NCBI GenBank assembly: GCA_028286645.1
Contig: JAQBRF010000004.1
Coordinates: 91,501 to 155,500 of the forward strand
Source of the DNA: Candidatus Nomurabacteria bacterium
GTDB taxonomy: Bacteria > Patescibacteriota > Minisyncoccia > Phycocordibacterales > UBA5272
Reading direction: 5' to 3'
DNA length: 64,000 bases
Positions 4,382-42,153 of the stretch are shown here, one piece after another (positions within the stretch are counted from its first letter, which is position 1; the number at the start of each line of letters is the position of its first letter). The position numbers were made by a program, and so were the translations under genes. The notes beneath the pieces are model-generated. The model searched no databases and was not told where the DNA came from. It was given only the letters and a program-made list of their open reading frames with translations.

Positions 4382-4389
4382 AATAAAAA

Positions 4390-4413
4390 CTGTGCCAGCA
4401 ACAGCTGGCACAG
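4390..4413 (-). terminator. hairpin ctgtgccagc-aaca-gctggcacag with a T-run on the minus strand
   Basis: Perfect 10-bp stem. The A-run 4381-4389 on plus gives a U-tract for a minus-strand transcript arriving from 4400-4700. Confidence 0.45.
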
Positions 4414-4443
4414 ACTCCTCGGGGGTGCAATATTTCACGATCC

Positions 4444-4699
4444 CTTCTTTTTTTTCCAGCGCGCGAGCTCTTCTTCGGTCGCTGGTCGTGAATGGACCTC
4501 GCCCCCTAAGCCATTTTCATAAAACTCGAGCTCCTCAAATAGGATTCCTTTTTTTGATTCGACCAAAGTCGAAATAGTTCTGTCAGTTGTCTGAAGGTGG
4601 AGGGAGTGCGGGGTGGTGTGAACGGCCAGTCCTACGAGTAACAGGACAAAAGCTGTGGCGAGGATCGGTTTAGAGTTGGCAAGTGATTCTCCTTGTCAT
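4444..4699 (-). pseudogene. possible frameshifted small secreted protein
   Basis: Minus ATG at 4699 gives MTRRITCQL then a stop. A +1 shift continues KPILATAFVLLLVGLAVHTTPHS... for 78 codons, which looks like a signal-peptide protein. The region is GC-rich and bounded by minus-strand terminators at 4390-4413 and 4755-4781. Confidence 0.2.
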
Positions 4700-4754
4700 G
4701 CCCCGTGAAGTGGGAGGCTTTATATAAAGTTACTTATTTTTAAAACTTTTGTCA

Positions 4755-4781
4755 AATAAAAACCACCCCTTTATTAGGGGC
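4755..4781 (-). terminator. intrinsic terminator for the 4804..5106 minus gene
   Basis: cccc-tttatta-gggg hairpin with a T-run on the minus strand (plus aataaaaacca). Confidence 0.45.
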
Positions 4782-4803
4782 GTCTTGGCAATCCTGGTGG
4801 CCG

Positions 4804-5106
4804 TTAGTTTCTTCCAGTCATCTCGTCCACGAGTTTTTTGAATACTGGAAGCACGCGGGTAACTTCTTCGCCGGCTTCACGGTGCAAGTAGCCGCTCCCC
4901 TGGAGACGGTTCAGGCCCTGTATGGTGTAGACTGCCTCCCGTATTCCGTTGTGGGGAAAGTCCGTATGAGTGATCGTCACCTCTGTAGGCATGACGCCCT
5001 TTGTCACCTTGGTGCATAGAAGGGCAGCCGCAGTGGCTTCCTCCGATGTCTGGAAAATGTCGAGCCAGACCCAAGGTGACGTTATATGATCCTTGTTAGT
5101 TCTCAT
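4804..5106 (-). CDS. hypothetical protein (100 aa), GC-rich class
   Basis: ORF in a region of about 50% GC. AAGGGG lies 9 nt upstream of the ATG on minus, and a terminator follows downstream. Confidence 0.4.
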   Translation of the reverse strand: MRTNKDHITSPWVWLDIFQTSEEATAAALLCTKVTKGVMPTEVTITHTDFPHNGIREAVYTIQGLNRLQGSGYLHREAGEEVTRVLPVFKKLVDEMTGRN

Positions 5107-29499: not shown

Positions 29500-30627
29500 A
29501 TGACAAACAAAGCATATAAAAACGAGACGATAAAGAGAAAATTCTACAGCTATTTAGCTAATTCTTCAAAAGGATTTTCTCCTACTACCATTGATTGTTA
29601 CGATGGTGCTATTTGTCTATGGGAAGATTTTTCTAAGGGAGAGGATTTCTTGTATTTTAGTAAAACAAAAGCAGAAGAATTCAAAGAATGGCTAAGAAAC
29701 AAGAAGAAGGTGCGTTCTTCAGAAAATGTAAGTCTGTCCTATTGTTACGACATGTTGAGATATTTGAGATGTTTCTTCAACTGGTTGTCTCAACAAAAGG
29801 GATACAGAAAAATAACTCAAAGTGATGTTGATTATCTCAATCTATCAAAAAAAGAAAGAAGAGTAGCAATGCAGCCAAAAAGTAAAGTTGTTCCTTCCTT
29901 AGAACAAGTAAAAAAGGTGATTGAAAATATTAAGGGGGAAAATGAAGTGGAGATGCGTGATAGGGCACTTCTGTCTCTTGCCCTGCTGACAGGAGCGCGA
30001 ATTACTGCTTTAACTTCGTTACCTCTAAGGAGTTTTGATAGGGAAAGACAGGTAATTGACCAGAGTCCAGAGCTGAATGTTAAAACTAAATTCTCAAAAA
30101 GAATTGTCTCACCGCTCATTTCCTTTTCATATAAGGAGCCATTAGGATACTTTGTTGAGTGGGTAAATTATTTAACTAGAAAGGGTTTTACAGATGAAGA
30201 CCCGATATTCCCAGCTACCAAAGTACAAAATGGTACAAAAGATGAGCTGGGTTATTTTAATACTGGTGAAGTAGAGCCTACCTTTTGGCAAAGTACATCT
30301 ACTGCAAGAAAGATATTTGAACAGAGGTTTACCCAAGCAGGTATTAGCTATCACAACCCTCACTCTTTTAGACATCTACTAGTTAAAGAAATATCAAAGC
30401 TCCATCTAACCGAGGAGCAGAGAAAAGCCTTCAGTCAAAGTTTAGGGCATGAGGATGTAGGTACAACATTTGGTTCGTACGGATATGGATATATTGATGA
30501 AGATAGACAAATAGAAATTGTTAATAGTATAGATTTTGAAGGGAAACATCATAGAAAAGAATATGTATTTACCGAGGAAGGGATAAATGAACTTATTAGG
30601 AAAGCCAAAGAGGGTGACGAAGTATGA
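29500..30627 (+). CDS. tyrosine-type site-specific recombinase / phage integrase family
   Basis: LALLTGARITAL (box I Arg), HNPHSFRHLLV (HxxR), LGHEDVGTTFGSYGY (catalytic Tyr region). Confidence 0.85.
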   Translation: MTNKAYKNETIKRKFYSYLANSSKGFSPTTIDCYDGAICLWEDFSKGEDFLYFSKTKAEEFKEWLRNKKKVRSSENVSLSYCYDMLRYLRCFFNWLSQQKGYRKITQSDVDYLNLSKKERRVAMQPKSKVVPSLEQVKKVIENIKGENEVEMRDRALLSLALLTGARITALTSLPLRSFDRERQVIDQSPELNVKTKFSKRIVSPLISFSYKEPLGYFVEWVNYLTRKGFTDEDPIFPATKVQNGTKDELGYFNTGEVEPTFWQSTSTARKIFEQRFTQAGISYHNPHSFRHLLVKEISKLHLTEEQRKAFSQSLGHEDVGTTFGSYGYGYIDEDRQIEIVNSIDFEGKHHRKEYVFTEEGINELIRKAKEGDEV

Positions 30628-31008: not shown

Positions 31009-32640
31009 ATGCCAGAACAATTACAAAATCAAACAAAACTAATTGCTGTTTATGGAAGGGTCTCTAGTTCAAATCAAGAAAACGAGGGAACTATTGAAAC
31101 ACAGCTCTCTGCAGTTAATGAGTTTTCTAAGAAGAATGGCTATACAATTGTGCAGAAATATACTGATGAAGGATGGAGTGGAGATAGTATCGCGAGACCT
31201 GCGTTAGACCAATTGCGAATGGATGCAAAGAAAAAGATTTGGTCTGCAGTTCTAATGTATGACCCAGATAGGTTGGCACGGCGCTATTCCTATCAAGAGT
31301 TGATTATGGATGAATTGAAGGAAGCTGGAATTGAAGTCATATTTGTAACAGTTTCCGCCCCGAAGAATAGTGAAGATAAAATTCTCTACGGAGTACGAGG
31401 TTTATTTGCTGAATACGAAAGGGCAAAGATTGCAGAACGCTTCCGACTAGGAAAAGTTCGTAAAGCAAACGAAGGCCATATTATTGCTAGTGAGGCACCT
31501 TATGGGTATACATTCATTACAAGAAATTCTGAAAGACAAGGTTACTACGAAATAAACGAAATTGAAGCAATTATCGTTAGGAAAATATTTACCTGGGTAG
31601 CTGACGAGGGTTTAACTTTACGAGCCATAGTTAAGCGTCTTCAGAATGAGGGAATACTACCTCGTAAAAGCAAAAGAGGTGTATGGAACACAAGTACATT
31701 AAGCACCCTATTACGAAATAAGACATACATAGGGGAAGCCCACTATGGTGCATCTTATGCTGTGGTTCCATTAAAACCGATTAAGAAGGAAGGCTATAAG
31801 AAAATAAAGAAAACGAGTAGACGAAATAAGCCTGAAAGTGAGTGGATTAAAATTTCTACTCCAAAAATTATTGAGGAAGAACTATTTATACGAGTAGGGC
31901 AAAGATTAAAGTCTAATTTTGAAAAGGCAGTAAGAAATACTAAAAATGAATATCTTCTCGCTGGTTCTATTTGGTGCTCGTGTGGAAATAGGCGGGCAGG
32001 GGAAGGGCCTCAACATGGTAAACACTTATATTACAGATGTACTAATCGCGGATATTGCTATCCTTTACCACGCACTTGTTTTGAAGGAGGAGTAAACGCA
32101 AGAATTGCTGATAAATTAGTTTGGCAAAAAGTCAGTATGCTTATGAGTTCTCCTGAACTTCTAACAAGACAAGCAGAACGATGGCTTAATAATAAGGTGA
32201 GCAGCAAACCTGCGGCCGCTACTGATATTTCAATATTAAGAAAAGAGATTGAAAAACTTAAAGACTCACAAGAACGATACATGAAAGCATATGGTGCGAA
32301 TGTCATCTCTTTAGAGCAGTTAACAGAATACACAGCACCTTTAAAAGAAAAAATGACTTCTCTGGATAGTCAAATAAAGCAAACTGAACTCGCAAATAAT
32401 CAGTTAAATGAAATACCACTACCCAAGAAAGAGGAAATAGAAGAGTTTGCACACAAGGCAAGCCATGAACTCAAAAATTTGAGCTTTAAGGCGAAACAGG
32501 AGATAATAAGAAGCATTATTGAAAAGGTCGTAGGTAATCAACAAGAACTAATAATATCAGGGTTTATACCCGTACAATATCTCAACCATGTCTCATTCTG
32601 CTCTCTCCATCGGAATCGTCGGATTGCCAAATGTAGGTAA
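31009..32640 (+). CDS. large serine recombinase (resolvase domain + recombinase domain + zinc ribbon + coiled coil)
   Basis: N-terminal LIAVYGRVSSSNQ catalytic Ser motif, a recombinase domain, a Cys-rich CSCGNRR...YYRCTNRGYCY ribbon, and a C-terminal coiled coil. The last 53 nt overlap the ychF start. Confidence 0.85.
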   Translation: MPEQLQNQTKLIAVYGRVSSSNQENEGTIETQLSAVNEFSKKNGYTIVQKYTDEGWSGDSIARPALDQLRMDAKKKIWSAVLMYDPDRLARRYSYQELIMDELKEAGIEVIFVTVSAPKNSEDKILYGVRGLFAEYERAKIAERFRLGKVRKANEGHIIASEAPYGYTFITRNSERQGYYEINEIEAIIVRKIFTWVADEGLTLRAIVKRLQNEGILPRKSKRGVWNTSTLSTLLRNKTYIGEAHYGASYAVVPLKPIKKEGYKKIKKTSRRNKPESEWIKISTPKIIEEELFIRVGQRLKSNFEKAVRNTKNEYLLAGSIWCSCGNRRAGEGPQHGKHLYYRCTNRGYCYPLPRTCFEGGVNARIADKLVWQKVSMLMSSPELLTRQAERWLNNKVSSKPAAATDISILRKEIEKLKDSQERYMKAYGANVISLEQLTEYTAPLKEKMTSLDSQIKQTELANNQLNEIPLPKKEEIEEFAHKASHELKNLSFKAKQEIIRSIIEKVVGNQQELIISGFIPVQYLNHVSFCSLHRNRRIAKCR

Positions 32641-33700: not shown

Positions 33701-34399
33701 CTATCTTACCTCTAGAAATACTTTAGGTTTGGTGGTGATAATGCGATCCTTTATTTCTGGAAAGATTTTACCTAATTGGATATTCTCAAAAAATATTGTT
33801 AATTCTCCATCATATGGATAGGCATTGGCATCATACAGAACATTTTTTATTTTTACTCTTTTTAACATTTCGGGCATTTCCTCAATGACATAGTGTGCCA
33901 TTCGGTTGATTTGTTGGTCATCGAAAGTTCGATTTTCATTCTTTGTGAATCCTTTGATTATTCCCTTTAATGTATCTTTAAACAATGGATTACTTTCGTA
34001 GTAATTATACAGAAACTTTACATCTTCTTTGTATCGGTCATCCATTAAATCCTTCCACGAGGCATAAATAATCTTTTCTTTTTCTTCTAAGCTAAAGCTT
34101 TTATCAATCTCATTTTTTACTTTTTCTATAATCACATTTCCCATTTTGTTAGAAAGTTCTAAGGCTTTAGCATGGGTAATGCCATTTCTAACCTCTAAGT
34201 TTATGGCATGAATATAATCAGCCACATATACCACAACGACGTCTTTGGTATGTTCTAAAGACCAACGGGTAAGTGCAACTATGTTTTCTACAGTAAACCA
34301 TTTATTTCCCAAACTTACTCCTATTCCTATTGTGTACTGCTTCTGTTGAAGTTCTTCCAAGTTGCCTCCTCTAATTTTACGAAGTTCCATGATACACAA
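33701..34399 (-). CDS. tRNA-dependent cyclodipeptide synthase (CDPS)
   Basis: IGIGVSLGNKWFTVENIVALTRWSLEHTKDVVVVYVADYIHAINL aligns with the AlbC-type motif IGISAGNSYFSQKNTVMLLQWA...VVYVDTHIDEML, including the catalytic Ser. Downstream, HYVIEEMPEM matches the CDPS Y[VI]xxExP motif with the catalytic Tyr and Glu. Size is about 230 aa. Confidence 0.75.
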   Translation of the reverse strand: MCIMELRKIRGGNLEELQQKQYTIGIGVSLGNKWFTVENIVALTRWSLEHTKDVVVVYVADYIHAINLEVRNGITHAKALELSNKMGNVIIEKVKNEIDKSFSLEEKEKIIYASWKDLMDDRYKEDVKFLYNYYESNPLFKDTLKGIIKGFTKNENRTFDDQQINRMAHYVIEEMPEMLKRVKIKNVLYDANAYPYDGELTIFFENIQLGKIFPEIKDRIITTKPKVFLEVR

Positions 34400-34444: not shown

Positions 34445-35188
34445 ATGAATCAGGAGTATTCTGCCGATTATAAGTTAAGTCTATATATAAACAGGATAAG
34501 AGCCTTTTTACTAAATCAGGGATTTTTCGAGCATCATTTATACTCTACAACTAATTACAAAATTGAAAACACAGATACTTTTCCTTTAAAGGATGGCATA
34601 TCTTTACGTTATAATCCTGAACCAGATATTTGGCAGATAGGTATTAAGTACGATAAATTTTTCTGGATTGGCAGTATGTTTAGAAATGAAAAAGAGATTA
34701 ATGAAACCAGAAGATATGAATTTACGGTAGTGGACATTTACCAACCAAATGGGAGACAAGAAGATGTTGTAAGTAAATTTATAGAAATATTGAAAATGTT
34801 GGAAGAAAGGTTAAAATTACCAGTTTTATCTTCATGTGAAGTTAAAACAATGCTTCATGAGGAATTCAATAAGGAGGACAGAATATTACCTTCAGGTAGG
34901 TGCTGGCTTCTAGTTACTAATTATCCAATTGTAGAATCATTTTATGACACAGGAAAAGATTCTGATTATACTTCTAAATTCGAAATTTACTTTGTTGATG
35001 AAGGCGTGCCTTTAGAAATAGCCGCTTGTGGAAATTTAGGGGAAAATATAAATAAAGTTAATTATATTTCGAGTGAAGATAGTTACATTAATCAAGAAAT
35101 AATAAATAAAAAGTTTATCGGTTTTGGTTTTGGGTTAGAAAGATTAATTTTTTTGTATGATCGGGAAGCTATCGACCATACAGAATGA
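34445..35188 (+). CDS. truncated class IIb aminoacyl-tRNA-synthetase-like catalytic core (LysRS/AsxRS paralog; EpmA- or AsnA-archaeal-type-like), no anticodon-binding domain
   Basis: Motif 2 MFRNEKEINETRRYEFTVVDIY (FRNE...EFT) and motif 3 GFGFGLERLIFLY (GxGxGxERL) are present; only 247 aa. Transcribed divergently from the CDPS. Confidence 0.7.
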   Translation: MNQEYSADYKLSLYINRIRAFLLNQGFFEHHLYSTTNYKIENTDTFPLKDGISLRYNPEPDIWQIGIKYDKFFWIGSMFRNEKEINETRRYEFTVVDIYQPNGRQEDVVSKFIEILKMLEERLKLPVLSSCEVKTMLHEEFNKEDRILPSGRCWLLVTNYPIVESFYDTGKDSDYTSKFEIYFVDEGVPLEIAACGNLGENINKVNYISSEDSYINQEIINKKFIGFGFGLERLIFLYDREAIDHTE

Positions 35189-35189
35189 T

Positions 35190-35320
35190 CATGGGTGATG
35201 CCTACTTGTACTAGCGGCGAGAGGCCAGTCCGCATCTCAACAAAAAGGTAGGGCAGGTACGCTCTGCACGTAATCCCATCAAAGCCTACGGACCACGAGC
35301 TGGCGCGAAATCGCCAGCTC
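35190..35320 (+). ncRNA. GC-rich structured element ending in an intrinsic terminator (candidate small RNA or 3' UTR element)
   Basis: A 130-nt stretch markedly GC-richer than its surroundings with several internal pairings (gcgg...ccgc, ccuac...guagg). It ends with the gagctggcg-cgaaat-cgccagctc hairpin plus tttcttttt. Confidence 0.25.
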
Positions 35321-35375
35321 TTTCTTTTTATATTATCGTTTGACTTACTAAAAATAAGATGTAGTGTTTGGGTAA
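35317..35375. repeat. 59-bp direct repeat, copy 1 (58/59 identical to 41559..41617)
   Basis: gctctttctttttatattatcgtttgacttactaaaaataagatgtagtgtttgggtaa. Weaker similarity continues for about 85 bp further, into a degenerate copy of the 5' end of the 41641 HTH gene. Confidence 0.8.
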
Positions 35376-35572: not shown

Positions 35573-38500
35573 ATGGAATTTATTAAAATATTTACCCAGT
35601 TAAATAAAAACAACGCACCTATTGCTGGAGGAAAAGGGGCCTCCTTGGGGGAAATGACTCAGGCGGGGATTCCGGTTCCGCCTGGATTTGTTATTTTATC
35701 TGAGACTTTTGATCATTTTTTATCGGAAACAGATTTAACGCAGGAAATTGAATTGATTTTAAAGAAAATAAATCATAATGAGATTCATGCTGTAGAGTCT
35801 GCCTCAGAAGAGATTCGGAATTTAATACTTCACAAAGATATTCCAGCAGATATTGAAGAAGGGATAATTAAATCGTTTAAAGAACTTAATGCTACCTACG
35901 TAGCAGTGAGATCATCTGCCACAGCAGAAGATGGAGCGGACCATGCTTGGGCAGGTCAACTAGAAACTTATTTAAATACTACAGAAGAAGACCTTCTTCG
36001 TAATGTAAAGCTTTGCTGGTCATCGCTTTTTACTCCGAGGGCCATTTTTTACAGATTTGAAAAGGAGCTAGATCAAACTAAAATTTCTGTAGCCGTAGTT
36101 ATACAAAAGATGGTGGAATCAGAGGTTTCAGGAATTGCCTTTTCAGTTCATCCTGTAACTGAAGATTATAACCAACTCATTATAGAAGCCGGATTTGGCT
36201 TAGGCGAAGCCATTGTGTCGGGGGCGGTTACTCCGGATTCATATATCGTGACAAAGAATTCACGGGAAATCGATATAAATGTATTTACGCAAAGCCGCGC
36301 ACTTTATAGATCTGTTAATAAAAATACGGAAGATGGAAATAACGAATGGAAGATAATCTCCGAGCCTCAGGCTTCATCTCAAGTACTTACAAATGATCAG
36401 ATTTTAGAACTTACTGAAATTATTATCACCATCGAGAATCATTACGGATTTCCATGTGATATCGAATGGGCGTACGAAAAAGGAAAGTTTTACATAGTCC
36501 AAAGCAGGCCCATCACAACTTTGAAAGGAAATATTGATTTATTAATAAAAACAAAAGAAGTTAATTTTAAAAAGGAGGATTATGTAATTACGTTTTGGGC
36601 ATCAGGCGTGAGTATTATATATACCGATATGGTTAAGGATATGTACCTACCGTATGATCCGCTGTTATGTATTTATGAAAATAAATATTATCAATATTTA
36701 TCGAAAACCGCTTATGACCAAGCAGGGAAAGATGGTATAGATTTATATGGCAATAAAGAAGCATATTATAAATATGAAGAAGATTTAAAAAAGGTAAGTC
36801 TTGATTTTAAGCGCTTTCGTGATAAGCGAATAAGTGAAACCTTTATCACTAAAGAAATACTTGAAGATTTTATAATGTATTCTAGCAAATTGCACCGAGG
36901 GTACAGTAAAATGGGATATGAGCATACCGACAAAGCTTTTTCTTTAGCAAATGAAAACCCTATAATTGCGGAGACCTTAAAAGAAGTTTCTATATTTAAG
37001 GACCAGATTAGAGCTGTAATAAATGAGATGTATTTTGAAAAAGGTTCATTGTTAGAGAATCTTTTAATACGATTAGAAAACCAGTTTCATGTTTCTTCTG
37101 GCGATTTATTAAATTATACTCAACAAGAATTACTCAATCTTTTTGATGGCAGCTTTGTCTCAAAGGAAGAGCTAGAAACTCGCGCCCTTGGTTTTGCTAT
37201 TCAGGGAATAGGCGGTGAAATTAAATTCTTTACAGGGAAAGTTGTAGAAAAAATAATTAACCAATTAGCTGAGCATATATTAGATAATAGAAATGAAATA
37301 AAAGGAATAATCGCGAATAAGGGTAAAGTATCTGGTCGAGTAAAAAAAATTAATGTTGATTATAGTGATTTTACGAAGCTAAATCAAGAAATCGAAAAGA
37401 TGAAAAATGGGGAAATTCTAGTGGCCGAAACCACTGCTCCTGAATTAATTATCGCTTGCCGAAAAGCTTCCGCTATAGTGACGGATCAAGGAGGCTTAAT
37501 GTCCCACGCCGCCATAATAAGCAGAGAATTTAATATTCCATGTATAGTTGGAACTAAATATGCTAGCCAGATTCTTCAGGATGGTGACGAAGTTGAAGTG
37601 GACGCAGATAAGGGAATAATAAAGATTTTAAAGAAAGCGGATCGAGAAAATTATCTCTTTTATTATGAATCACAGGGCTATTATTTTATTTTAGATGATC
37701 TTATTGTGGAATCATATATTGATTGGCCAATAGTTGAGATGCGAAGAGGAGACTGGAAACGGGTGTATATGACCGAAGAAGATATTCAAGAAAATTATCT
37801 TAAGGGACTTTCTTTTACAGAAAAAGAAATTAAGAAGAAAACCGATAATATACGACGACTGATTGAAAAAATAAGAAAAGTAAATTTTAATAATGCGCCA
37901 AAAGAAATAATTCTTAGTGGATTACAGATGATGGAAGATTTATTCGAATCATATAAATACCTTGATACCTCGTTTAGTGAGGGTTTATATGAGAAAAATA
38001 TCTCTGATCTTAGAGTGCTTATTATTGAACAATCTAAAAACCTTATACGAGATGATTTTGATTATATCTTTTTTAAGGACGGTGGAATATTGCGGCAATT
38101 ACTAACGGCTACAGCATTGCTCACTGGAACAAAAGCAGAAGATATAAGATGGTATCGCACTAAAGAGTTAAAAAGACTTATAAATGAACCTTATGAGATT
38201 TCTTCTTCTGAGATCCAAGCAAGATCTAAAGCTGCTGTCTTTGATAAAGACAGGAATGGAAATATAACTTTTTATTCGGGCCAAGAAGCAGAAGACTTTA
38301 TACAAAAGTTTGATAAAGAATTTGAAAAAGATAAGACTGAAGTGCTTAAGGGAACTGTTGCGTATGGAAATGGGGGTAAAATTAAAGGAATAGTTACTAT
38401 CATACATCGCGACTATTCGAATCTTTCAAAATTAGGTATTGATATGGAAAGGATGGCACCAGGTTCAATTTTAATAACAACCATTACAGACCCTGAATTC

Positions 38501-38689
38501 CTCCCTGCTATGAAGAAGGCCAGCGCAATAGTCACGGACATTGGAGGACTCTTGTCACACGCTGCTATTTCCGCAAGGGAACTCAAGGTTCCATGCATCG
38601 TAGGAACTCAGATTGCCACTAAGACTCTAAAAGATGGAGACGAAATTGAAATTGATATGAATACAGGAGCTATAAAATTCTTATCATGA
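35573..38689 (+). CDS. PEP-synthase/rifampin-phosphotransferase-like kinase: N-terminal PPDK_N ATP-grasp domain plus two PEP-utilizing phosphohistidine swivel domains, with no PEP/pyruvate TIM barrel
   Basis: N-terminus APIAGGKGASLGEM...PVPPGF, VAVRSSATAEDGADHAWAGQ, CDIEWAYEKGKFYIVQSRPIT. Swivel domains at about residues 620-700 (GGLMSHAAIISREFNIPCIVGT) and 960-1040 (GGLLSHAAISARELKVPCIVGT). The start is set at the MEFIKIF Met. Confidence 0.8.
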   Translation: MEFIKIFTQLNKNNAPIAGGKGASLGEMTQAGIPVPPGFVILSETFDHFLSETDLTQEIELILKKINHNEIHAVESASEEIRNLILHKDIPADIEEGIIKSFKELNATYVAVRSSATAEDGADHAWAGQLETYLNTTEEDLLRNVKLCWSSLFTPRAIFYRFEKELDQTKISVAVVIQKMVESEVSGIAFSVHPVTEDYNQLIIEAGFGLGEAIVSGAVTPDSYIVTKNSREIDINVFTQSRALYRSVNKNTEDGNNEWKIISEPQASSQVLTNDQILELTEIIITIENHYGFPCDIEWAYEKGKFYIVQSRPITTLKGNIDLLIKTKEVNFKKEDYVITFWASGVSIIYTDMVKDMYLPYDPLLCIYENKYYQYLSKTAYDQAGKDGIDLYGNKEAYYKYEEDLKKVSLDFKRFRDKRISETFITKEILEDFIMYSSKLHRGYSKMGYEHTDKAFSLANENPIIAETLKEVSIFKDQIRAVINEMYFEKGSLLENLLIRLENQFHVSSGDLLNYTQQELLNLFDGSFVSKEELETRALGFAIQGIGGEIKFFTGKVVEKIINQLAEHILDNRNEIKGIIANKGKVSGRVKKINVDYSDFTKLNQEIEKMKNGEILVAETTAPELIIACRKASAIVTDQGGLMSHAAIISREFNIPCIVGTKYASQILQDGDEVEVDADKGIIKILKKADRENYLFYYESQGYYFILDDLIVESYIDWPIVEMRRGDWKRVYMTEEDIQENYLKGLSFTEKEIKKKTDNIRRLIEKIRKVNFNNAPKEIILSGLQMMEDLFESYKYLDTSFSEGLYEKNISDLRVLIIEQSKNLIRDDFDYIFFKDGGILRQLLTATALLTGTKAEDIRWYRTKELKRLINEPYEISSSEIQARSKAAVFDKDRNGNITFYSGQEAEDFIQKFDKEFEKDKTEVLKGTVAYGNGGKIKGIVTIIHRDYSNLSKLGIDMERMAPGSILITTITDPEFLPAMKKASAIVTDIGGLLSHAAISARELKVPCIVGTQIATKTLKDGDEIEIDMNTGAIKFLS

Positions 38690-39798
38690 ATATATTAGAG
38701 TATATTAAATCTAATACCTATGAGCGTCTCGTCCGGTATCCACGGATTCCTGTTTTATATGCCGAAGCAATGAATGAGGGTTTACAAAATAATCCATATT
38801 TTGATCTTGCTGATTCTATTCCTAACCCCTCAATTATTGTTTATATTAATGATATTTATGAAGCGTGGATAAAAATATCAGGACGTGTTATTGTAAGCGA
38901 CCTTGAATCCATAAAAGAAATAGAAACAGCAAGCTTAAAGTGTATAGAAAGAAATCAATCTATTTTGGAGGATATCTTAAATTTAAAAGATGAATTATCT
39001 GACAAAGAGGTGATTATTGAAATGATTAAAAAAACAAATTCTGCGTCCTCAGATATATATAAGCATTTTATATTCTTTATAGATGAAAGTTTCAGAGTTT
39101 CTGATCAGGAAATAATCGAAAGCTTACAAAGTACTCGTCTGAAGTTAGACCTCCTAGTTACTGAATATTTATTTCCTGCCTTTGAAAGGTTAGTTAATGA
39201 ACTTGTTGAGGTTTATGATTTTCCTAAAGAAACAGTAGAAAAAATGACAACCTCTGAAATAATTGAATCTTTAAAAGATTATGATTATCTTATAAAACTT
39301 GAAAATATCAGTGCCCGACCTATATGTTTTTTGCTGGCAGACAATACCATTAAGGTCCTTTTCAGTAAAGAAGCAAAAGATGTGTGCTCTTATTTATATA
39401 AGCAAGACACAGATAAAAAAATATTTGATCAGGCTTTAGAAAGTAAAACCTTAAAAGGAAATATTGGTAACCAAGGAAAAGTTCGAGGGAAAGTTAGAAA
39501 GCTTTTAGCTAAGGATTTCTTCAATAAAGATAAACTTGCTAATCTATCTCAAGGAGATAAGTTTGTTTTGGTTACTTCTATGACGGCTCCTGAGCTTGTG
39601 CCTTATTTTAAAAATGCAATTGCGTTTGTAACTGACGAAGGTGGGATCACATGCCATGCGGCGATTATCGCTCGCGAATTAAATATTCCTTGTATTATAG
39701 GAACCAAGGTAGCTACAGAAGTTATAAATGACGGTGACGACGTGGAAGTGGATGCATATAAAGGGTTAGTAAAAATAATTAATAATTTAAATAGATAA
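38686..39798 (+). CDS. PEP-utilizing-enzyme mobile (phosphohistidine swivel) domain protein with an uncharacterised 250-aa N-terminal domain
   Basis: C-terminal LKGNIGNQGKVRGKV...GGITCHAAIIARELNIPCIIGT. Overlaps the upstream gene by 4 nt (ATGA). Confidence 0.7.
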   Translation: MNILEYIKSNTYERLVRYPRIPVLYAEAMNEGLQNNPYFDLADSIPNPSIIVYINDIYEAWIKISGRVIVSDLESIKEIETASLKCIERNQSILEDILNLKDELSDKEVIIEMIKKTNSASSDIYKHFIFFIDESFRVSDQEIIESLQSTRLKLDLLVTEYLFPAFERLVNELVEVYDFPKETVEKMTTSEIIESLKDYDYLIKLENISARPICFLLADNTIKVLFSKEAKDVCSYLYKQDTDKKIFDQALESKTLKGNIGNQGKVRGKVRKLLAKDFFNKDKLANLSQGDKFVLVTSMTAPELVPYFKNAIAFVTDEGGITCHAAIIARELNIPCIIGTKVATEVINDGDDVEVDAYKGLVKIINNLNR

Positions 39799-39800
39799 AC

Positions 39801-40832
39801 ATGTCAAATTTGCAAGAGTATAGATACATAATGAATCGCTCTTTATCACTTATTGCCTGTGAATTATGGGACAAAGGAGAAAGGCTAATGATGCCAGAAA
39901 AGCTAGCTCAAAAGATTTTCTTTGACCCTCTTTTTATTTACAGAATGAATAAGGCTGTAACAATCTATTATAATTTTACTGACCCGAAACAAAGTCTTAA
40001 TTCAGTCGCACAATACCTTAATGAAAATGAAAGTATTTTTGATGAATTAAAGGACCAATTTGATGTAGATTGCTATGAAATAAGACAAATGATAGATCGA
40101 AAAAAGCCTGAAGAATTTAATAATCTCTTCGAAAAAGTAATTTGTATTTGGCCATTAATTGCTATTAGCAATGTTTTAGGAGATGACAGGGATTATCTTC
40201 CAATTGTTAAAGAGAGTATGCGGGAAAAGTATTTGCTTATTAGGAAAGAAAGTGACGGTCTGTGGCAAAAAGGAGCCAAAATACTTCAAATACAAGCTGA
40301 ACATCTTATACCCCAGAAGTATTTACCATGGTCTGAGTTCCTTCTATCTAAGGAGGTTATTTCTAAAGAGTTGCCATCCATTACAGAACTAAAAAAAAGA
40401 AAAGATGGATATCTTTATCATAAGGGATCACTTTATGTAAATGAAACGACAGAGATCTATTTAAAAGATAACCAATATTTCCTTACCGAGAATGAAAAGC
40501 CTTCAGCGGAAGTTAAGATAATAAAAGGAATATCTGCCATGAAGGGAAAAGTAATAGGAAAAGTCAAAGTTATTTTTGAAAAGAAGGATATAAAAAAAAT
40601 TGAAAAGGGAGATATACTAGTCACTCCTATGACGTCTCCTAATTTAATAGAGGCCATGAATAGAGCTGCAGGATTTGTAACAGATGAAGGAGGTGTCACG
40701 TGTCATGCGGCGATTATCGCTCGCGAAATGGGAAAGCCTTGCATAATTGCGACAAAGATAGCAACCAAAGTGCTTAATGATGGAGATCTGGTTGAAGTGG
40801 ATGCAGATAGCGGAAGAGTTATAAAATTATAG
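39801..40832 (+). CDS. PEP-utilizing-enzyme mobile (phosphohistidine swivel) domain protein with an uncharacterised N-terminal domain
   Basis: C-terminal IKGISAMKGKVIGKV...GGVTCHAAIIAREMGKPCIIAT. Starts 2 nt after the upstream stop. Confidence 0.7.
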   Translation: MSNLQEYRYIMNRSLSLIACELWDKGERLMMPEKLAQKIFFDPLFIYRMNKAVTIYYNFTDPKQSLNSVAQYLNENESIFDELKDQFDVDCYEIRQMIDRKKPEEFNNLFEKVICIWPLIAISNVLGDDRDYLPIVKESMREKYLLIRKESDGLWQKGAKILQIQAEHLIPQKYLPWSEFLLSKEVISKELPSITELKKRKDGYLYHKGSLYVNETTEIYLKDNQYFLTENEKPSAEVKIIKGISAMKGKVIGKVKVIFEKKDIKKIEKGDILVTPMTSPNLIEAMNRAAGFVTDEGGVTCHAAIIAREMGKPCIIATKIATKVLNDGDLVEVDADSGRVIKL

Positions 40833-40865: not shown

Positions 40866-40894
40866 TTGACTTTCTGTACATAATATGGTATACT
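40866..40894 (+). promoter_or_regulatory. near-consensus promoter TTGACT-17-TATACT with a TG extension
   Basis: ttgactttctgtacataatatggtatact. A 38-nt leader with an AGGGAG SD precedes the ATG at 40933. Confidence 0.5.
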
Positions 40895-40932: not shown

Positions 40933-41514
40933 ATGGACCAAAATCGTGAAATCTGGCTTGCTCGCCACTTTCCTGCGGAAAACACAGGCGAGGTCGGCTG
41001 GCAGCAAAACGCCAAGCTTCGCCCGGAAGCAGAGAACATGGCCGAACGCGTGAAGGTGGCATATCTGCAATCGGTGTCGTTTGCTGCATTCGGCTGCTCC
41101 ATGATGGACCGGGCTCACGCGAGTCTCGGGCTCCTGTTTTTGGAGATAGGGAATGGCAACAAGGTGCCGGTGACTTGTCAGAGCCTCGGCCCGCTTAATC
41201 CCGACGAGTGGGGGTTTTTCGGACAACTGAAGACCGGAACCATCGAGGAAATACACGAGCATGCACCAGAAGGTCTGCTCGACCGCGAAGGTGTACGCGT
41301 TCTGGAGAGAGGCGTTATCATGTTCGCCGACGCCTGGCTTCAGCCCGGAGAGAAAGCTTTCCTCGTTTCCCATACGCCCTTTATAGAAGGTGCACTCGCC
41401 GCTCTCAAGGGTTACTGGGATCTCGAGTTCACGATGGGAAAAGGCGACATCCTCGTCTTCACCATTGGCGAACGCGGCGTCGAAAGCACTCGGCATCTGA
41501 TAGTTCCGAAGTAG
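40933..41514 (+). CDS. SixA-like histidine phosphatase family protein, GC-rich class
   Basis: IWLARHFPAE (RHG-like RHF) and FLVSHTPFIEGALAAL (VSHxP) resemble phosphohistidine phosphatase SixA. GC-rich with an SD. Confidence 0.45.
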   Translation: MDQNREIWLARHFPAENTGEVGWQQNAKLRPEAENMAERVKVAYLQSVSFAAFGCSMMDRAHASLGLLFLEIGNGNKVPVTCQSLGPLNPDEWGFFGQLKTGTIEEIHEHAPEGLLDREGVRVLERGVIMFADAWLQPGEKAFLVSHTPFIEGALAALKGYWDLEFTMGKGDILVFTIGERGVESTRHLIVPK

Positions 41515-41558
41515 CGTTCGTGCTCCTGTGGTATTTTAGCCGGCGGCTCTATGCGCCG

Positions 41559-41617
41559 GCTCTTTCTTTTTATATTATAGTTTGACTTACTAAAAATAAG
41601 ATGTAGTGTTTGGGTAA
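41559..41617. repeat. 59-bp direct repeat, copy 2
   Basis: gctctttctttttatattatagtttgacttactaaaaataagatgtagtgtttgggtaa. Preceded by a terminator hairpin (gccggcg...gcgccggc) whose sequence differs from the hairpin before copy 1 but whose structure is analogous. Confidence 0.8.
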
Positions 41618-41640
41618 ACTCATTCACCTGCGGGGCAGCT

Positions 41641-42153
41641 ATGAAAAGGACGGTAGAATCTGGGAAATTGCATTTGCCGGAGCTCGCGAAATATCTGCAA
41701 ATGTGCCGGCTCATGATGAAGCCTCGCCTTAACCAGCGAGAATTCTCACAAAAGATCGGCACTAGTGATCATGTGGTGATTGATCTGGAATGTGGCGTAA
41801 CCATGGACCCGAAGCGAGCCATTCTGGAAAAATGGGCCAAAGTGACTGGAGGCTCATACACCAGGATGGTTCAGATTCTGACCTTCGAGAAGTTCGGCAT
41901 TGCGGTGGTTCCTTCAACGTGCGGGAGTGTCTGGTCTTCGCAAATCCTTCAGATGGGGGGAGAGTTGGTAATGGTGACACTGCAGAAATGCGAACCGTTG
42001 CCTTTCCTCTTCTCGGCATCAAAGCAGGAAAGCGATAAGAAGTTCCAGTCTCGGAAACGAGCAACAAGGGATGAGATCGAAAGGTTCAAGGAAACTCCGC
42101 GTCCAACCATGTCTGTAGGGCGCGTTGTTTCCGGACGATCCACACGTGGCTAA
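41641..42153 (+). CDS. XRE-family helix-turn-helix protein, GC-rich class
   Basis: LNQREFSQKIGTSDHVVIDLECG Cro/C1-type HTH near the N-terminus. Its 5' region has a degenerate duplicate at 35376-35460. Confidence 0.5.
   Translation: MKRTVESGKLHLPELAKYLQMCRLMMKPRLNQREFSQKIGTSDHVVIDLECGVTMDPKRAILEKWAKVTGGSYTRMVQILTFEKFGIAVVPSTCGSVWSSQILQMGGELVMVTLQKCEPLPFLFSASKQESDKKFQSRKRATRDEIERFKETPRPTMSVGRVVSGRSTRG

What the first reader, a model, noticed from the sequence alone, without database searches (positions are those of the whole stretch)
35573..40832. Three-gene operon with one PPDK_N ATP-grasp domain and four phosphohistidine swivel domains (rifampin-phosphotransferase-like, expanded and split)
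- Gene 1 (1039 aa) has the PEP-synthase/PPDK N-terminal nucleotide-binding domain followed by two complete PEP-utilizing mobile domains. Each mobile domain carries the catalytic His in GGL(M/L)SHAAI, and the two are separated by helical regions of about 250 aa.
- Genes 2 and 3 are tightly coupled (overlaps of 4 nt and +2 nt). Each consists of a helical N-domain of about 250 aa plus one more swivel domain (GG(I/V)TCHAAIIARE).
- No PEP/pyruvate TIM-barrel domain is present, so these are not PpsA or PPDK enzymes.
- The closest known architecture is rifampin phosphotransferase / YvkC, which has ATP-grasp + substrate-binding domain + one swivel His domain.
- One ATP-grasp feeding four [unknown domain + His domain] modules suggests a multi-substrate or relay phosphotransferase system. 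To my knowledge that is undescribed.
Basis: partly seen in the sequence, partly recalled or inferred. Interest (0 to 1): 0.8.

Follow-up and report, generated by a model that had tools for sequence, protein, structure and literature searches.

The report
One ATP loader, four phosphohistidine modules
Three tightly packed genes in a Candidatus Nomurabacteria genome encode one ATP-binding domain and four [quoted passage not shown] modules; this looks like a modular relative of rifampin phosphotransferase, it turns out to be widespread and much expanded in ultra-small CPR bacteria and DPANN archaea, and I found no paper describing it.

Summary
- Gene 1 (35573-38689, 1038 aa) has one PPDK_N ATP-grasp and two PEP-utilizers swivel domains (His645, His996).
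- Genes 2 (38686-39798) and 3 (39801-40832) each have one swivel domain (His324, His302).
- No PEP/pyruvate TIM barrel was found by Pfam, AF2 or tblastn.

Each swivel domain follows a ~235-250 aa mostly helical domain. The four are barely alike by BLASTP but are homologous by profile-profile comparison. Each keeps an Arg...Glu...Arg triad. The Glu and the second Arg align to E710 and R728 of Listeria rifampin phosphotransferase (RPH).

The locus is a small member of a large CPR/DPANN family. One ATP-grasp, fused or stand-alone, goes with 1 to 10 or more modules, including polypeptides of up to 3761 aa with 8 swivel domains. Of 180 acceptor domains in arrays, 173 have their best match in another genome, so module types are old and conserved.

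Best reading: a multi-acceptor RPH-type dikinase. The single ATP-grasp loads each His carrier in cis or in trans, as in the two-component dikinases PpsAB and HpeHI. Each carrier then phosphorylates a module-specific acceptor. The acceptors and the physiological role are unknown.

Verdict: new variant of a known kind.

The parts
35573..38689 (+). Gene 1 (1038 aa): ATP-grasp followed by two [acceptor domain + His swivel] modules
   Evidence: ORF and translation. Pfam PPDK_N plus 2x PEP-utilizers. AF2 model pLDDT 85.9. 100% identical to a Ca. Nomurabacteria MAG protein.
35621..36526 (+). PPDK_N ATP-grasp (nucleotide-binding) domain, aa 17-318. Conserved K21 and R113 correspond by motif to RPH K22 and R117.
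36560..37297 (+). Acceptor-binding helical domain 1 (aa ~330-575), with R480/E519/R537
   Evidence: AF2 secondary structure beta-alpha-beta-beta plus helices. hhalign to the other three helical domains. R480 invariant, E519 and R537 nearly invariant in 34 homologues. No PDB sequence match at E<=10.
37298..37642 (+). Swivel phosphohistidine domain 1 (aa ~576-690); catalytic His645 is codon 37505-37507
   Evidence: Pfam PEP-utilizers 611-681. GGLMSHAA motif.
37643..38347 (+). Acceptor-binding helical domain 2 (aa ~691-925), with R826/E865/R884
   Evidence: hhalign H1-H2 probability 100%, E 3e-45. BLASTP 17.7% identity, E 7e-4. R826, E865 and R884 nearly invariant in 34 homologues.
38348..38686 (+). 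Swivel phosphohistidine domain 2 (aa ~926-1038); catalytic His996 is codon 38558-38560
   Evidence: Second PEP-utilizers stretch. GGLLSHAA.
38686..39798 (+). Gene 2 (370 aa): stand-alone [acceptor domain + swivel] module; R151/E191/R211; His324 is codon 39655-39657. Its start overlaps the gene 1 stop by 4 nt.
   Evidence: About 20 full-length orthologues of 350-378 aa in Patescibacteria and archaea. One orthologue sits next to a stand-alone PPDK_N gene (L091).
39801..40832 (+). Gene 3 (343 aa): stand-alone [acceptor domain + swivel] module; R148/E185/R200; His302 is codon 40704-40706
   Evidence: Large family of ~340-aa orthologues. R148, R200 and H302 invariant in 99 sequences. AF2 pLDDT 95.2, pTM 0.91. 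Profile aligns to RPH-Lm 698-866.
40933..41514 (+). Possible accessory gene (193 aa, GC 0.56): weak histidine-phosphatase-like protein. Membership in the system is uncertain.
   Evidence: His_Phos_1 E 0.0032, 17.6 bits, below the 21.7 cut-off. No terminator between gene 3 and this ORF, and a promoter-like site at 40866-40894. It is not matched by the HMM of the His_Phos-like family embedded in other arrays. Singleton cluster.
35297..35375 (+). Upstream boundary: intrinsic-terminator-like hairpin (35297-35320) plus the first copy of a 64-nt repeat (35312-35375)
41538..41617 (+). Downstream boundary: terminator-like hairpin (41538-41561) plus the second copy of the 64-nt repeat (41554-41617)

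Best explanation
**What it is.** The three genes encode a modular, multi-acceptor member of the His-swivel dikinase superfamily (PpsA / RPH / two-component phenolic dikinases).

**Proposed mechanism.**
1. The single ATP-grasp domain of gene 1 binds ATP.
2. The catalytic His of a swivel domain attacks the beta-phosphate of that ATP. The His may belong to one of the two modules fused in cis, or to the gene 2 or gene 3 protein docking in trans.
3. The gamma-phosphate is released to water, leaving His~P.
4. The swivel domain swings back onto its own helical acceptor-binding domain. There a conserved Arg/Glu/Arg set assists transfer of the phosphoryl group to a module-specific acceptor, most probably a hydroxyl group of a small molecule.
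5. Net reaction per module: ATP + acceptor + H2O -> AMP + Pi + acceptor-P.

The four modules act in parallel on four different acceptors and share one loader.

**Shown here:** the domain content, intact catalytic motifs, homology of all four acceptor domains to each other and to the C-terminal part of the RPH acceptor domain, and conservation of each module type as its own orthologue family across genomes.

**Inferred:** loading in trans, parallel rather than serial transfer, and the nature of the acceptors.

**Physiological role (a guess).** Either phosphorylation-trapping of host-derived metabolites or inactivation of xenobiotics by these host-dependent, ultra-small organisms.
For: **Catalytic parts are present and intact**
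- One PPDK_N domain and four PEP-utilizers domains, each with its catalytic His.
- The ATP-grasp keeps the invariant GGKGASLGE and VRSSATxED motifs.

**Acceptor domains are homologous to each other**
- hhalign probabilities are 95-100% for five of the six pairs.
- AF2 gives the same secondary-structure pattern for each module.

**Acceptor domains are homologous to the RPH acceptor domain**
- The gene-3 family profile aligns to RPH-Lm 698-866, with E185 on E710 and R200 on R728.
- The ~480-aa sister modules are homologous to the short ones (97.7%).
- Those long modules align to RPH 446-866 (E 6e-35). Their conserved D-x-R-K falls on RPH block 9, R666-E667-x-x-K670. Those RPH residues are essential for the second phosphotransfer (PMC4844700).
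- The invariant Arg of the short modules lies 37-40 residues before the conserved Glu, matching the 36 residues in long modules and 41-44 in RPH.

**Trans loading has precedent**
- HpeHI, PpsAB and CreHI are two-component dikinases in which a stand-alone ATP-grasp protein serves a separate acceptor+swivel protein (PMC12167813).
- Relatives of this locus have stand-alone ~310-340-aa PPDK_N genes next to module genes (L009, L010, L014, L068, L091 and others).

**Modules are specialised, not redundant**
- 173 of 180 acceptor domains in multi-module loci have their best BLAST hit in another genome. Only 4 have it within their own locus.
- 244 acceptor domains fall into 76 clusters, and arrays mix many clusters.
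- Genes 2 and 3 each have full-length orthologue families.

**Operon**
- A 4-nt overlap and a 2-nt spacer join the genes. Strong terminators lie only outside them.
Against: - No biochemical data exist, and no acceptor has been identified.
- The equivalence of the invariant Arg to RPH R666 rests on spacing and a two-step profile alignment. In that alignment the Arg lines up 2-3 residues from R666. No superposition was done.
- The inter-domain geometry of the gene 1 model is unreliable (pTM 0.47), so nothing shows that one ATP-grasp can reach two cis modules plus two trans partners.
- Some relatives have module genes with no ATP-grasp within 9-10 kb (L008, L011, L020 and others).
- A dikinase spends two phosphoanhydride bonds per phosphorylation, which is costly for energy-poor fermenters.
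- Neighbouring genes give no coherent pathway.
Confidence: 0.6

Rival explanations
1. Serial phosphorelay. The phosphoryl group passes from the ATP-grasp to the first swivel His and then from His to His along the four modules, as in PTS multiphosphoryl transfer proteins, ending on one final acceptor.
For: - Four His carriers sit in one transcription unit.
- Swivel domains are homologous to the His domain of PTS enzyme I.
Against: - Each module carries its own complete acceptor domain with the conserved Arg/Glu/Arg set.
- Single-module systems exist: G-H-S proteins of ~676 aa, and one module gene next to one ATP-grasp gene.
- Module number ranges from 1 to 10 or more, with a free mix of types. 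That fits parallel units, not a fixed chain.
- No swivel-to-swivel transfer is known (own knowledge).
Confidence: 0.08
2. Same chemistry, specific role in xenobiotic or antibiotic inactivation. The modules are a battery of RPH-like resistance kinases, each inactivating a different toxic natural product made by hosts or neighbours. The products may be exported by the ABC exporters often encoded nearby.
For: - The closest characterised acceptor domain is that of RPH.
- Copy number is highly variable and acceptor domains are diversified, while the catalytic parts are conserved.
- An ABC exporter half-transporter lies within 5 kb in 10 loci.
- rph-like genes have been counted in CPR resistome surveys (PMC8651080).
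Against: - The RPH equivalog model scores 374.5 bits against a 999 cut-off.
- The arms of the RIF-binding domain are missing.
- Module types are conserved as old orthologue families across phyla. That argues against a fast arms race.
- There is no link to known resistance genes or mobile resistance contexts, and there are no PADLOC hits.
- Stogios et al. showed that a distant RPH homologue gives no rifampin resistance (PMC4844700).
Confidence: 0.2
3. Same chemistry, specific role in metabolite scavenging. Each module phosphorylates and thereby traps a different host-derived nutrient or precursor (for example sugars, cell-wall fragments, polyprenols, nucleosides or cofactor precursors) that these auxotrophic symbionts cannot make.
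For: - The family is concentrated in CPR and DPANN, which depend on hosts.
- The HpeHI authors propose phosphorylation-trapping of diffusible substrates as the rationale for such dikinases (PMC12167813).
- Module types are anciently conserved.
- Peptidoglycan genes recur nearby: mreC/PBP2 in L001; murG, mur ligase and murB in L010; mur ligase in L024; glucosaminidase in L008.
- Phosphatase-type genes (HAD, HD, His_Phos-like, LMWPc) recur in or beside arrays.
Against: - Module content varies greatly between related genomes, which is unexpected for core salvage.
- The reaction is ATP-expensive.
- The neighbourhood associations were not tested against a background, and CPR genomes are rich in cell-wall genes.
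- No transporter is consistently linked.
Confidence: 0.25
4. The acceptors are proteins or polymers such as cell-wall glycans, as with enzyme I acting on HPr or glucan water dikinase. The helical domains would then be docking surfaces.
For: - Swivel domains serve protein (EI) and polymer (GWD) acceptors in other families.
- Gene 1 gives a faint GWD1_pHisD hit (E 0.047).
- LMWPc protein-phosphatase-type genes lie next to five loci.
Against: - The acceptor domain is homologous to the small-molecule-binding domain of RPH, not to the EI helical subdomain or to carbohydrate-binding modules.
- No HPr-like partner was seen in the neighbourhood.
Confidence: 0.07
5. Ordinary PEP synthase or PPDK, or decayed duplicates. 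The genes would be a fragmented or mis-assembled ppsA, with non-functional extra swivel domains.
For: - GenBank names genes 2 and 3 'phosphoenolpyruvate synthase'.
- The best NCBIfam and PDB sequence matches of the ATP-grasp and swivel parts are PpsA.
Against: - There is no PEP-utilizers_C domain in the three proteins or anywhere in the window.
- PpsA models score 522 and 497 bits against cut-offs of 598 and 740, and only over the ATP-grasp and swivel parts.
- All four His motifs are intact.
- Hundreds of homologues share the same multi-module layouts.
Confidence: 0.02

Closest known systems
Rifampin phosphotransferase (RPH; e.g. RPH-Lm, PDB 5HV1/5FBS) and its wider superfamily (PMC4844700)
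   Same: - Order of domains: N-terminal ATP-grasp, then acceptor-binding domain, then C-terminal His swivel domain.
- No TIM barrel.
- The end of the acceptor domain plus the swivel domain align by sequence, with E185/R200 of gene 3 on E710/R728 of RPH.
- Gene 1 swivel domains have the RPH-like M or L two residues before the His.
   Different: - The acceptor domain is ~235-250 aa instead of 428 aa. Most RIF-binding subdomain blocks are absent.
- There are four acceptor+swivel modules per ATP-grasp instead of one, and two of them are on separate polypeptides.
- Genes 2 and 3 carry the PpsA-type T-C-H motif.
- The RPH equivalog HMM scores far below its cut-off.
Two-component small-molecule dikinases: phenylphosphate synthase PpsAB, CreHI, HpeHI (PMC12167813)
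   Same: - An acceptor+swivel protein is encoded separately from the ATP-grasp and is presumably loaded in trans through a transient complex. Genes 2 and 3 fit this.
- Relatives have stand-alone PPDK_N genes.
   Different: - Here the ATP-grasp is also fused to two modules.
- One ATP-grasp would serve several different partners rather than one.
- The acceptor domains are about half the size of HpeH's RPH-like domain.
- There is no aromatic-catabolism context.
PEP synthase (PpsA) / pyruvate phosphate dikinase
   Same: - The ATP-grasp and swivel domains are the closest sequence relatives (8a8e E 8.6e-98 for gene 1; 6.8e-44 for the gene-3 family swivel domain).
- Genes 2 and 3 have the GGxTCHAAIIARE motif.
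   Different: - There is no PEP/pyruvate-binding TIM barrel.
- A helical acceptor domain precedes each swivel domain.
- There are multiple swivel domains.
Prodiginine-condensing enzymes PigC / RedH / HapC
   Same: ATP-grasp plus central domain plus C-terminal swivel His, with no TIM barrel. The NCBIfam models hit at 1e-106 to 1e-110 over the shared domains.
   Different: - Scores of 355-368 bits are far below the cut-offs of 1300-1350.
- Those enzymes have a single module.
- There is no pigment-cluster context here.

Membership tests
PEP synthase / PPDK | N-terminal PPDK_N ATP-grasp nucleotide-binding domain | tested here: met
   PF01326 E 1e-96 at aa 17-318 of gene 1.
PEP synthase / PPDK | Central swivel domain with catalytic His | tested here: met
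   PF00391 in all three proteins, with four intact GGxxxHAA motifs.
PEP synthase / PPDK | C-terminal PEP/pyruvate-binding TIM barrel (PF02896) | tested here: not met
   No PF02896 hit. PpsA equivalog scores are below their cut-offs. AF2 shows no beta/alpha barrel. tblastn with the L084 TIM-barrel domain finds nothing in the window.
Rifampin phosphotransferase (RPH) | ATP-grasp, then acceptor domain, then C-terminal His swivel, without a TIM barrel | tested here: met
Rifampin phosphotransferase (RPH) | [quoted passage not shown] | tested here: not met
   The acceptor domains are 235-250 aa. The family profile aligns only to RPH 698-866. NF041857 scores 374.5 bits against a 999 cut-off, and NF000283 scores 272.7 against 1700.
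Rifampin phosphotransferase (RPH) | Block 9 catalytic Arg-Glu...Lys (R666/E667/K670) in the acceptor domain | tested here: inconclusive
   An invariant or nearly invariant Arg (g1 R480 and R826, g2 R151, g3 R148) lies at the equivalent spacing before the conserved Glu. The long sister modules' D-x-R-K aligns on RPH 667-670. No direct superposition was possible.
Rifampin phosphotransferase (RPH) | Phosphorylates rifamycins and confers resistance | not testable with these tools
   Needs biochemistry or MIC assays.
Two-component small-molecule dikinases (PpsAB/CreHI/HpeHI) | The acceptor+swivel component is encoded separately from the ATP-grasp component | tested here: met
   Genes 2 and 3 are stand-alone acceptor+swivel proteins. 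However, the ATP-grasp here is fused to two further modules. Stand-alone PPDK_N genes occur in relatives.
Two-component small-molecule dikinases (PpsAB/CreHI/HpeHI) | RPH-sized (~470 aa) substrate-binding domain homologous over its length to the RIF-binding domain | tested here: not met
   The short modules of the window align only over the last ~70 residues of that domain. The ~480-aa sister modules in other genomes do align from RPH residue 446.
Two-component small-molecule dikinases (PpsAB/CreHI/HpeHI) | Trans phosphorylation of the swivel His by the ATP-grasp protein | not testable with these tools
   Needs in vitro labelling.
PTS enzyme I | Swivel His domain with inserted HPr-binding helical subdomain plus C-terminal PEP-binding barrel | tested here: not met
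   Only the swivel domain matches (E ~1e-5 to 1e-12). There is no barrel.

The most novel reading that the evidence does not exclude
CPR bacteria and DPANN archaea share a previously unrecognised combinatorial phosphorylation system.
- A single ATP-grasp 'loader' charges a variable set of anciently diverged, acceptor-specific phosphohistidine carrier modules. The set ranges from 1 to 10 or more, fused or free-standing.
- This gives these minimal cells a plug-in repertoire of small-molecule dikinases for capturing or neutralising compounds obtained from their hosts.
- The window's locus is a four-module example in which one loader works both in cis and in trans.
Probability: 0.4. Interest if true: 0.8.

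Novelty: new variant of a known kind. Interest (0 to 1): 0.68.

Why it matters
- **For enzymology.** His-swivel dikinases are textbook examples of one carrier domain shuttling between two fixed active sites. A loader shared by many carrier-plus-acceptor modules, partly in trans, would be a new way of organising this chemistry. It would resemble a hub-and-spoke system more than a single enzyme.
- **For the biology of CPR and DPANN.** Some organisms with ~1-Mb genomes spend 10-15 kb on these arrays, or encode 3-4 kaa polyproteins with eight carrier domains. The products therefore probably matter for the host-dependent lifestyle, a major open problem.
- **For annotation.** The genes are currently labelled 'phosphoenolpyruvate synthase' or 'hypothetical'. 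This can distort metabolic reconstructions, for example inferred gluconeogenesis, and resistome counts.
- **For biotechnology.** The compact ~340-aa modules would be attractive minimal scaffolds for engineering ATP-driven phosphorylation of chosen small molecules.

Tried and rejected
- **BLASTP between the four helical domains.** Only H1-H2 gave a marginal hit. Profile-profile comparison was needed.
- **Helical domain 1 against PDB sequences.** Nothing at E<=10.
- **Rfam.** No hit on the whole window at gathering thresholds, and none on the 5' leader at E<=1. No tRNAs. The leader fold has z = -0.11, so it is not a structured leader.
- **PADLOC defence models.** No hit for genes 1-3.
- **Foldseek against AFDB50.** The library was unavailable.
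- **Window ORF 40933-41514.** An HMM of the His_Phos-like family embedded in other arrays does not match it. I therefore do not count it as a shared accessory gene.
- **The 64-nt repeat.** The sigma-70 scan lists no promoter-like site inside either copy, so I do not call the repeat a promoter.
- **CDPS and aaRS-like neighbours.** I considered them part of one biosynthetic cluster with the dikinase. I set this aside because no relative examined has them adjacent.
- **Neighbour analysis.** It gave recurrent but heterogeneous partners (ABC exporter, TrmB, HAD, HD, His_Phos-like, PTA, LMWPc, hexapeptide transferase) and no single pathway.
- **Six literature searches.** They found the RPH, HpeHI, PigC/HapC and GWD papers but nothing on multi-swivel systems. 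Absence from this library is not proof of absence.

Full report
**1. The observation**

The window comes from a Candidatus Nomurabacteria (Patescibacteria/CPR) MAG. Gene 1 is 100% identical to a protein on a 514-kb contig.

Three + strand ORFs lie at 35573-38689 (1038 aa), 38686-39798 (370 aa) and 39801-40832 (343 aa). The first junction is a 4-nt ATGA overlap and the second a 2-nt spacer.

Pfam results:
- Gene 1: PPDK_N at aa 17-318 (E 1e-96) and two PEP-utilizers domains.
- Gene 2: one PEP-utilizers domain at aa 292-360.
- Gene 3: one PEP-utilizers domain at aa 267-338.

The four catalytic-His motifs are intact:
- GGLMSHAA (His645) and GGLLSHAA (His996) in gene 1.
- GGITCHAA (His324) in gene 2.
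- GGVTCHAA (His302) in gene 3.

Evidence against a TIM barrel:
- There is no PEP-utilizers_C hit.
- Every PpsA, PPDK, RPH and PigC NCBIfam model scores well below its curated cut-off, and only over the ATP-grasp and swivel parts.
- The AF2 models contain no beta/alpha barrel.
- A validated PpsA TIM-barrel domain (from L084) finds nothing in the window by tblastn at E<=10.

The only strong terminator-like hairpins lie outside the three genes, at 35297-35320 and 41538-41561.

**2. What the 'helical regions' are**

By BLASTP the four ~235-250-aa regions that precede the swivel domains are almost unrecognisable to each other. Only H1-H2 gives a hit: 17.7% identity, E 7e-4.

I built profiles from orthologues: 34 two-module homologues, 18 gene-2 orthologues and 99 gene-3 orthologues. 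These show the regions are homologous:

| Pair | hhalign probability | E-value |
|---|---|---|
| H1-H2 | 100% | 3e-45 |
| H1-gene3 | 98.8% | 1e-16 |
| H1-gene2 | 97.4% | 1.2e-11 |
| H2-gene2 | 97.7% | 2e-12 |
| H2-gene3 | 95.5% | 1.4e-08 |
| gene2-gene3 | 41.9% | 2.7e-04 |

The gene2-gene3 pair is weak taken alone.

AF2 modelling supports the same picture:
- Gene 3 folds with pLDDT 95.2 and pTM 0.91. It has an N-terminal beta-alpha-beta-beta unit, a helical bundle (aa ~66-202), a short beta pair and then the swivel domain.
- The gene 1 model (pLDDT 85.9; pTM 0.47, so domain packing is unreliable) repeats this pattern twice after the ATP-grasp.

Every module keeps an Arg...Glu...Arg triad with constant spacing:

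| Module | Arg | Glu | Arg |
|---|---|---|---|
| Gene 1, module 1 | R480 | E519 | R537 |
| Gene 1, module 2 | R826 | E865 | R884 |
| Gene 2 | R151 | E191 | R211 |
| Gene 3 | R148 | E185 | R200 |

R480, R148 and R200 are invariant in their alignments. The others in gene 1 and E185 in gene 3 are nearly invariant. The gene 2 positions were read from the sequence.

**3. Relation to known structures**

- By sequence, the gene-3 family profile aligns to RPH-Lm 698-866 (E 3.6e-26). This places E185 on E710 and R200 on R728.
- Relatives carry a second, longer class of module (~480 aa). Its N-domain is homologous to the short helical domains (97.7%).
- The long-module profile aligns to RPH-Lm 446-866 (E 6e-35). 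Its conserved D-x-R-K falls on RPH block 9, R666-E667-x-x-K670. Stogios et al. showed that R666 and E667 are essential for the second phosphotransfer and that block 9 is conserved even in the most distant clades of the RPH superfamily (PMC4844700).
- The invariant first Arg of the short modules lies 37-40 residues upstream of the conserved Glu. The equivalent distance is 36 in long modules and 41-44 in RPH. I therefore infer that it is the block-9 equivalent. This is an inference from spacing, not a superposition.
- In sequence, the ATP-grasp and swivel parts are nearest to PpsA. Genes 2 and 3 carry the PpsA-type T-C-H motif, while gene 1 has the RPH-like M or L at position -2.

**4. The wider family**

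Gene 1 homologues are abundant. The search returned 8000 scored hits, all at E<=1e-3. Among the best 120, His-motif counts per protein were:

| His motifs per protein | Number of proteins | Typical length |
|---|---|---|
| 0 | 2 | - |
| 1 | 18 | ~676 aa |
| 2 | 61 | ~1040 aa |
| 3 | 38 | 1350-1800 aa |
| 4 | 1 | 1756 aa (Woesearchaeota) |

A scan of one genome per GTDB species returned 80 loci, almost all CPR or DPANN. I annotated these with HMMs I built for the ATP-grasp, swivel and helical domains. They show extreme modularity:
- Tandem arrays reach 8-10 module genes (L019, L031, L039, L041, L046, L064, L072).
- Giant fusions occur. L016 is 3761 aa with one PPDK_N and 8 PEP-utilizers domains by Pfam. 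L030 is 2932 aa and L017 is 1994 aa.
- The ATP-grasp is either fused or a stand-alone ~310-340-aa gene (L009, L010, L014, L023, L026, L051, L068, L072, L074, L091).
- Closer relatives show every intermediate form:
  - a two-module gene alone (L001, L005);
  - G-H-S followed by four module genes (L003);
  - a multi-module gene plus a gene-3 orthologue (L092);
  - a gene-2 orthologue next to a stand-alone ATP-grasp (L091);
  - a gene-3 orthologue with no ATP-grasp within 9 kb (L008).

An exhaustive HMMER search with an H1-only helical profile found 595 cluster representatives at E<=1e-3 among 1.84 billion proteins. All of the best 150 have lengths that fit H-S, G-H-S or multi-module layouts.

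The arrays are not recent tandem duplications:
- Of 180 acceptor domains in loci with three or more modules, 173 have their best BLAST hit in another locus and only 4 within their own.
- 244 acceptor domains fall into 76 clusters, and arrays mix many clusters.

Module types are therefore old, conserved and distinct. This is what different acceptor specificities would predict.

**5. Mechanism**

Established knowledge for PpsA, RPH and the two-component dikinases PpsAB and HpeHI (PMC4844700, PMC12167813):
1. The swivel His attacks the beta-phosphate of ATP bound in the ATP-grasp.
2. The gamma-phosphate is hydrolysed.
3. The phospho-His domain swings to the second site and phosphorylates the acceptor.
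4. In PpsAB and HpeHI the ATP-grasp is a separate protein that forms only a transient complex.

All parts needed for this chemistry are present and conserved here, four times over for the second half-reaction and once for the first. I therefore propose a hub-and-spoke dikinase. One loader charges two carriers in cis and two in trans, and each carrier delivers phosphate to its own acceptor site.

Parallel action is favoured over a His-to-His relay for three reasons:
- Each module is a complete half-reaction unit.
- One-module systems exist.
- Module number and order vary freely.

The acceptors are unknown. Recurrent neighbours within 5 kb are:

| Neighbour | Loci |
|---|---|
| ABC exporter half-transporter | 10 |
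| TrmB regulator | 10 |
| HAD hydrolase | 6 |
| Divergent His_Phos_1-like protein | 5-6 |
| HD hydrolase | 5 |
| Phosphotransacetylase | 5 |
| Hexapeptide transferase | 4 |
| LMWPc phosphatase | 5 |

Peptidoglycan genes also recur. None of these associations was tested against a background, and together they do not define a pathway.

Two physiological readings seem most plausible:
- trapping of host-derived metabolites, which is the rationale proposed for HpeHI;
- inactivation of xenobiotics, which is the RPH paradigm.

I cannot separate them.

**6. Membership and novelty**

- It is not a PpsA or PPDK, because the TIM barrel was tested and is absent.
- It is not an RPH in the strict sense, because the RIF-binding domain architecture is not met and HMM scores are far below cut-off.
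- It works like, and belongs to, the broader RPH / two-component dikinase superfamily.
- The new element is the multiplicity: several diverged acceptor+carrier modules per ATP-grasp, in cis and in trans, and the great expansion of this design in CPR and DPANN.
- I found no description of this in six full-text searches. A CPR resistome survey merely counts 'rph-like' genes (PMC8651080).
- I classify it as a new variant of a known kind.

**7. Caveats**

- Function is inferred from homology only.
- The inter-domain geometry of the gene 1 model is unreliable.
- The equivalence to RPH block 9 is indirect.
- Many loci are cut by contig ends, so the presence or absence of an ATP-grasp near large arrays is often undetermined.
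- MAG taxonomic labels for some loci (for example 'uncultured Gammaproteobacteria') are probably unreliable.

Noticed in passing
window 35312-35375 and 41554-41617: A 64-nt direct repeat (97% identical). Its 37-nt core is exact and no match is expected by chance. The repeat begins in the 3' half of an intrinsic-terminator hairpin; the two stems (35297-35320 and 41538-41561) differ by compensatory changes. The two copies bracket genes 1-3 plus ORF 40933-41514. The role is unknown: possibly a duplicated terminator and regulatory cassette, or the boundaries of an inserted segment.
   Followed up: partly
window 40933-42153: Two ORFs, 40933-41514 (193 aa, GC 0.56) and 41641-42153 (170 aa, GC 0.51), form a GC-rich patch among genes of GC 0.30-0.35. 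Both are singletons at 90% identity and are annotated as hypothetical. The first has a weak histidine-phosphatase (His_Phos_1) match below the cut-off. The second has only a faint HTH hit in PADLOC. This may be foreign DNA.
   Followed up: partly
window 33701-34399 (-) and 34445-35188 (+): A tRNA-dependent cyclodipeptide synthase (TIGR04539, 69.5 bits against a 45 cut-off) is divergently paired with a free-standing 247-aa class II aminoacyl-tRNA-synthetase catalytic-core-like protein (weak LysRS/EpmA/tRNA-synt_2 hits). This may be a small CDPS cassette with its own aminoacylation-type partner. It was not adjacent to dikinase genes in any relative examined.
   Followed up: partly
window 29500-30627 and 31009-32640; L005-L007 ~3450-4870: A tyrosine integrase and a large serine recombinase lie a few kb upstream of the locus. 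A large serine recombinase also sits directly next to the two-module homologue in Zambryskibacteria contigs. This hints that these dikinase loci may sit in or near mobile regions.
   Followed up: no
L005-7, L008, L039, L078, L092 (LMWPc); L019, L034, L037, L048, L056 (His_Phos-like); L023, L041, L061, L078 (HD); L027, L028, L056, L073 (HAD): Phosphatase-type genes of four different superfamilies are embedded in or adjacent to the dikinase module arrays. ABC exporter half-transporters lie within 5 kb in 10 loci. Enrichment was not tested against a genomic background.
   Followed up: partly
L001 (mreC, 87-aa ORF, dikinase, PBP2), L010 (murG, mur ligase, murB), L024 (mur ligase), L008 (glucosaminidase), L092 (3D domain), L005 (VanY, M14, S51 peptidases): Peptidoglycan synthesis and remodelling genes are repeatedly next to the dikinase genes. 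In L001 the two-module gene sits inside an mreBCD-PBP2 cluster. This could be a functional hint about cell-wall precursors as acceptors, or simply reflect gene-dense CPR genomes.
   Followed up: no
L028, L031, L035, L049, L070: A phosphotransacetylase (PTA_PTB, E 7e-95 for the L031 representative) lies within or beside arrays in five loci, most of them DPANN archaea. It is sometimes accompanied by a hexapeptide acyltransferase. An acetyl-phosphate link to the phosphohistidine carriers is conceivable but untested.
   Followed up: no
L016 7817-19102; L030 16-8814: Single ORFs of 3761 aa (Woesearchaeota; one PPDK_N plus 8 PEP-utilizers domains by Pfam) and 2932 aa (archaeon; open at the 5' end of the locus, so the true protein may be longer). 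These are the largest fused versions of the system seen.
   Followed up: partly
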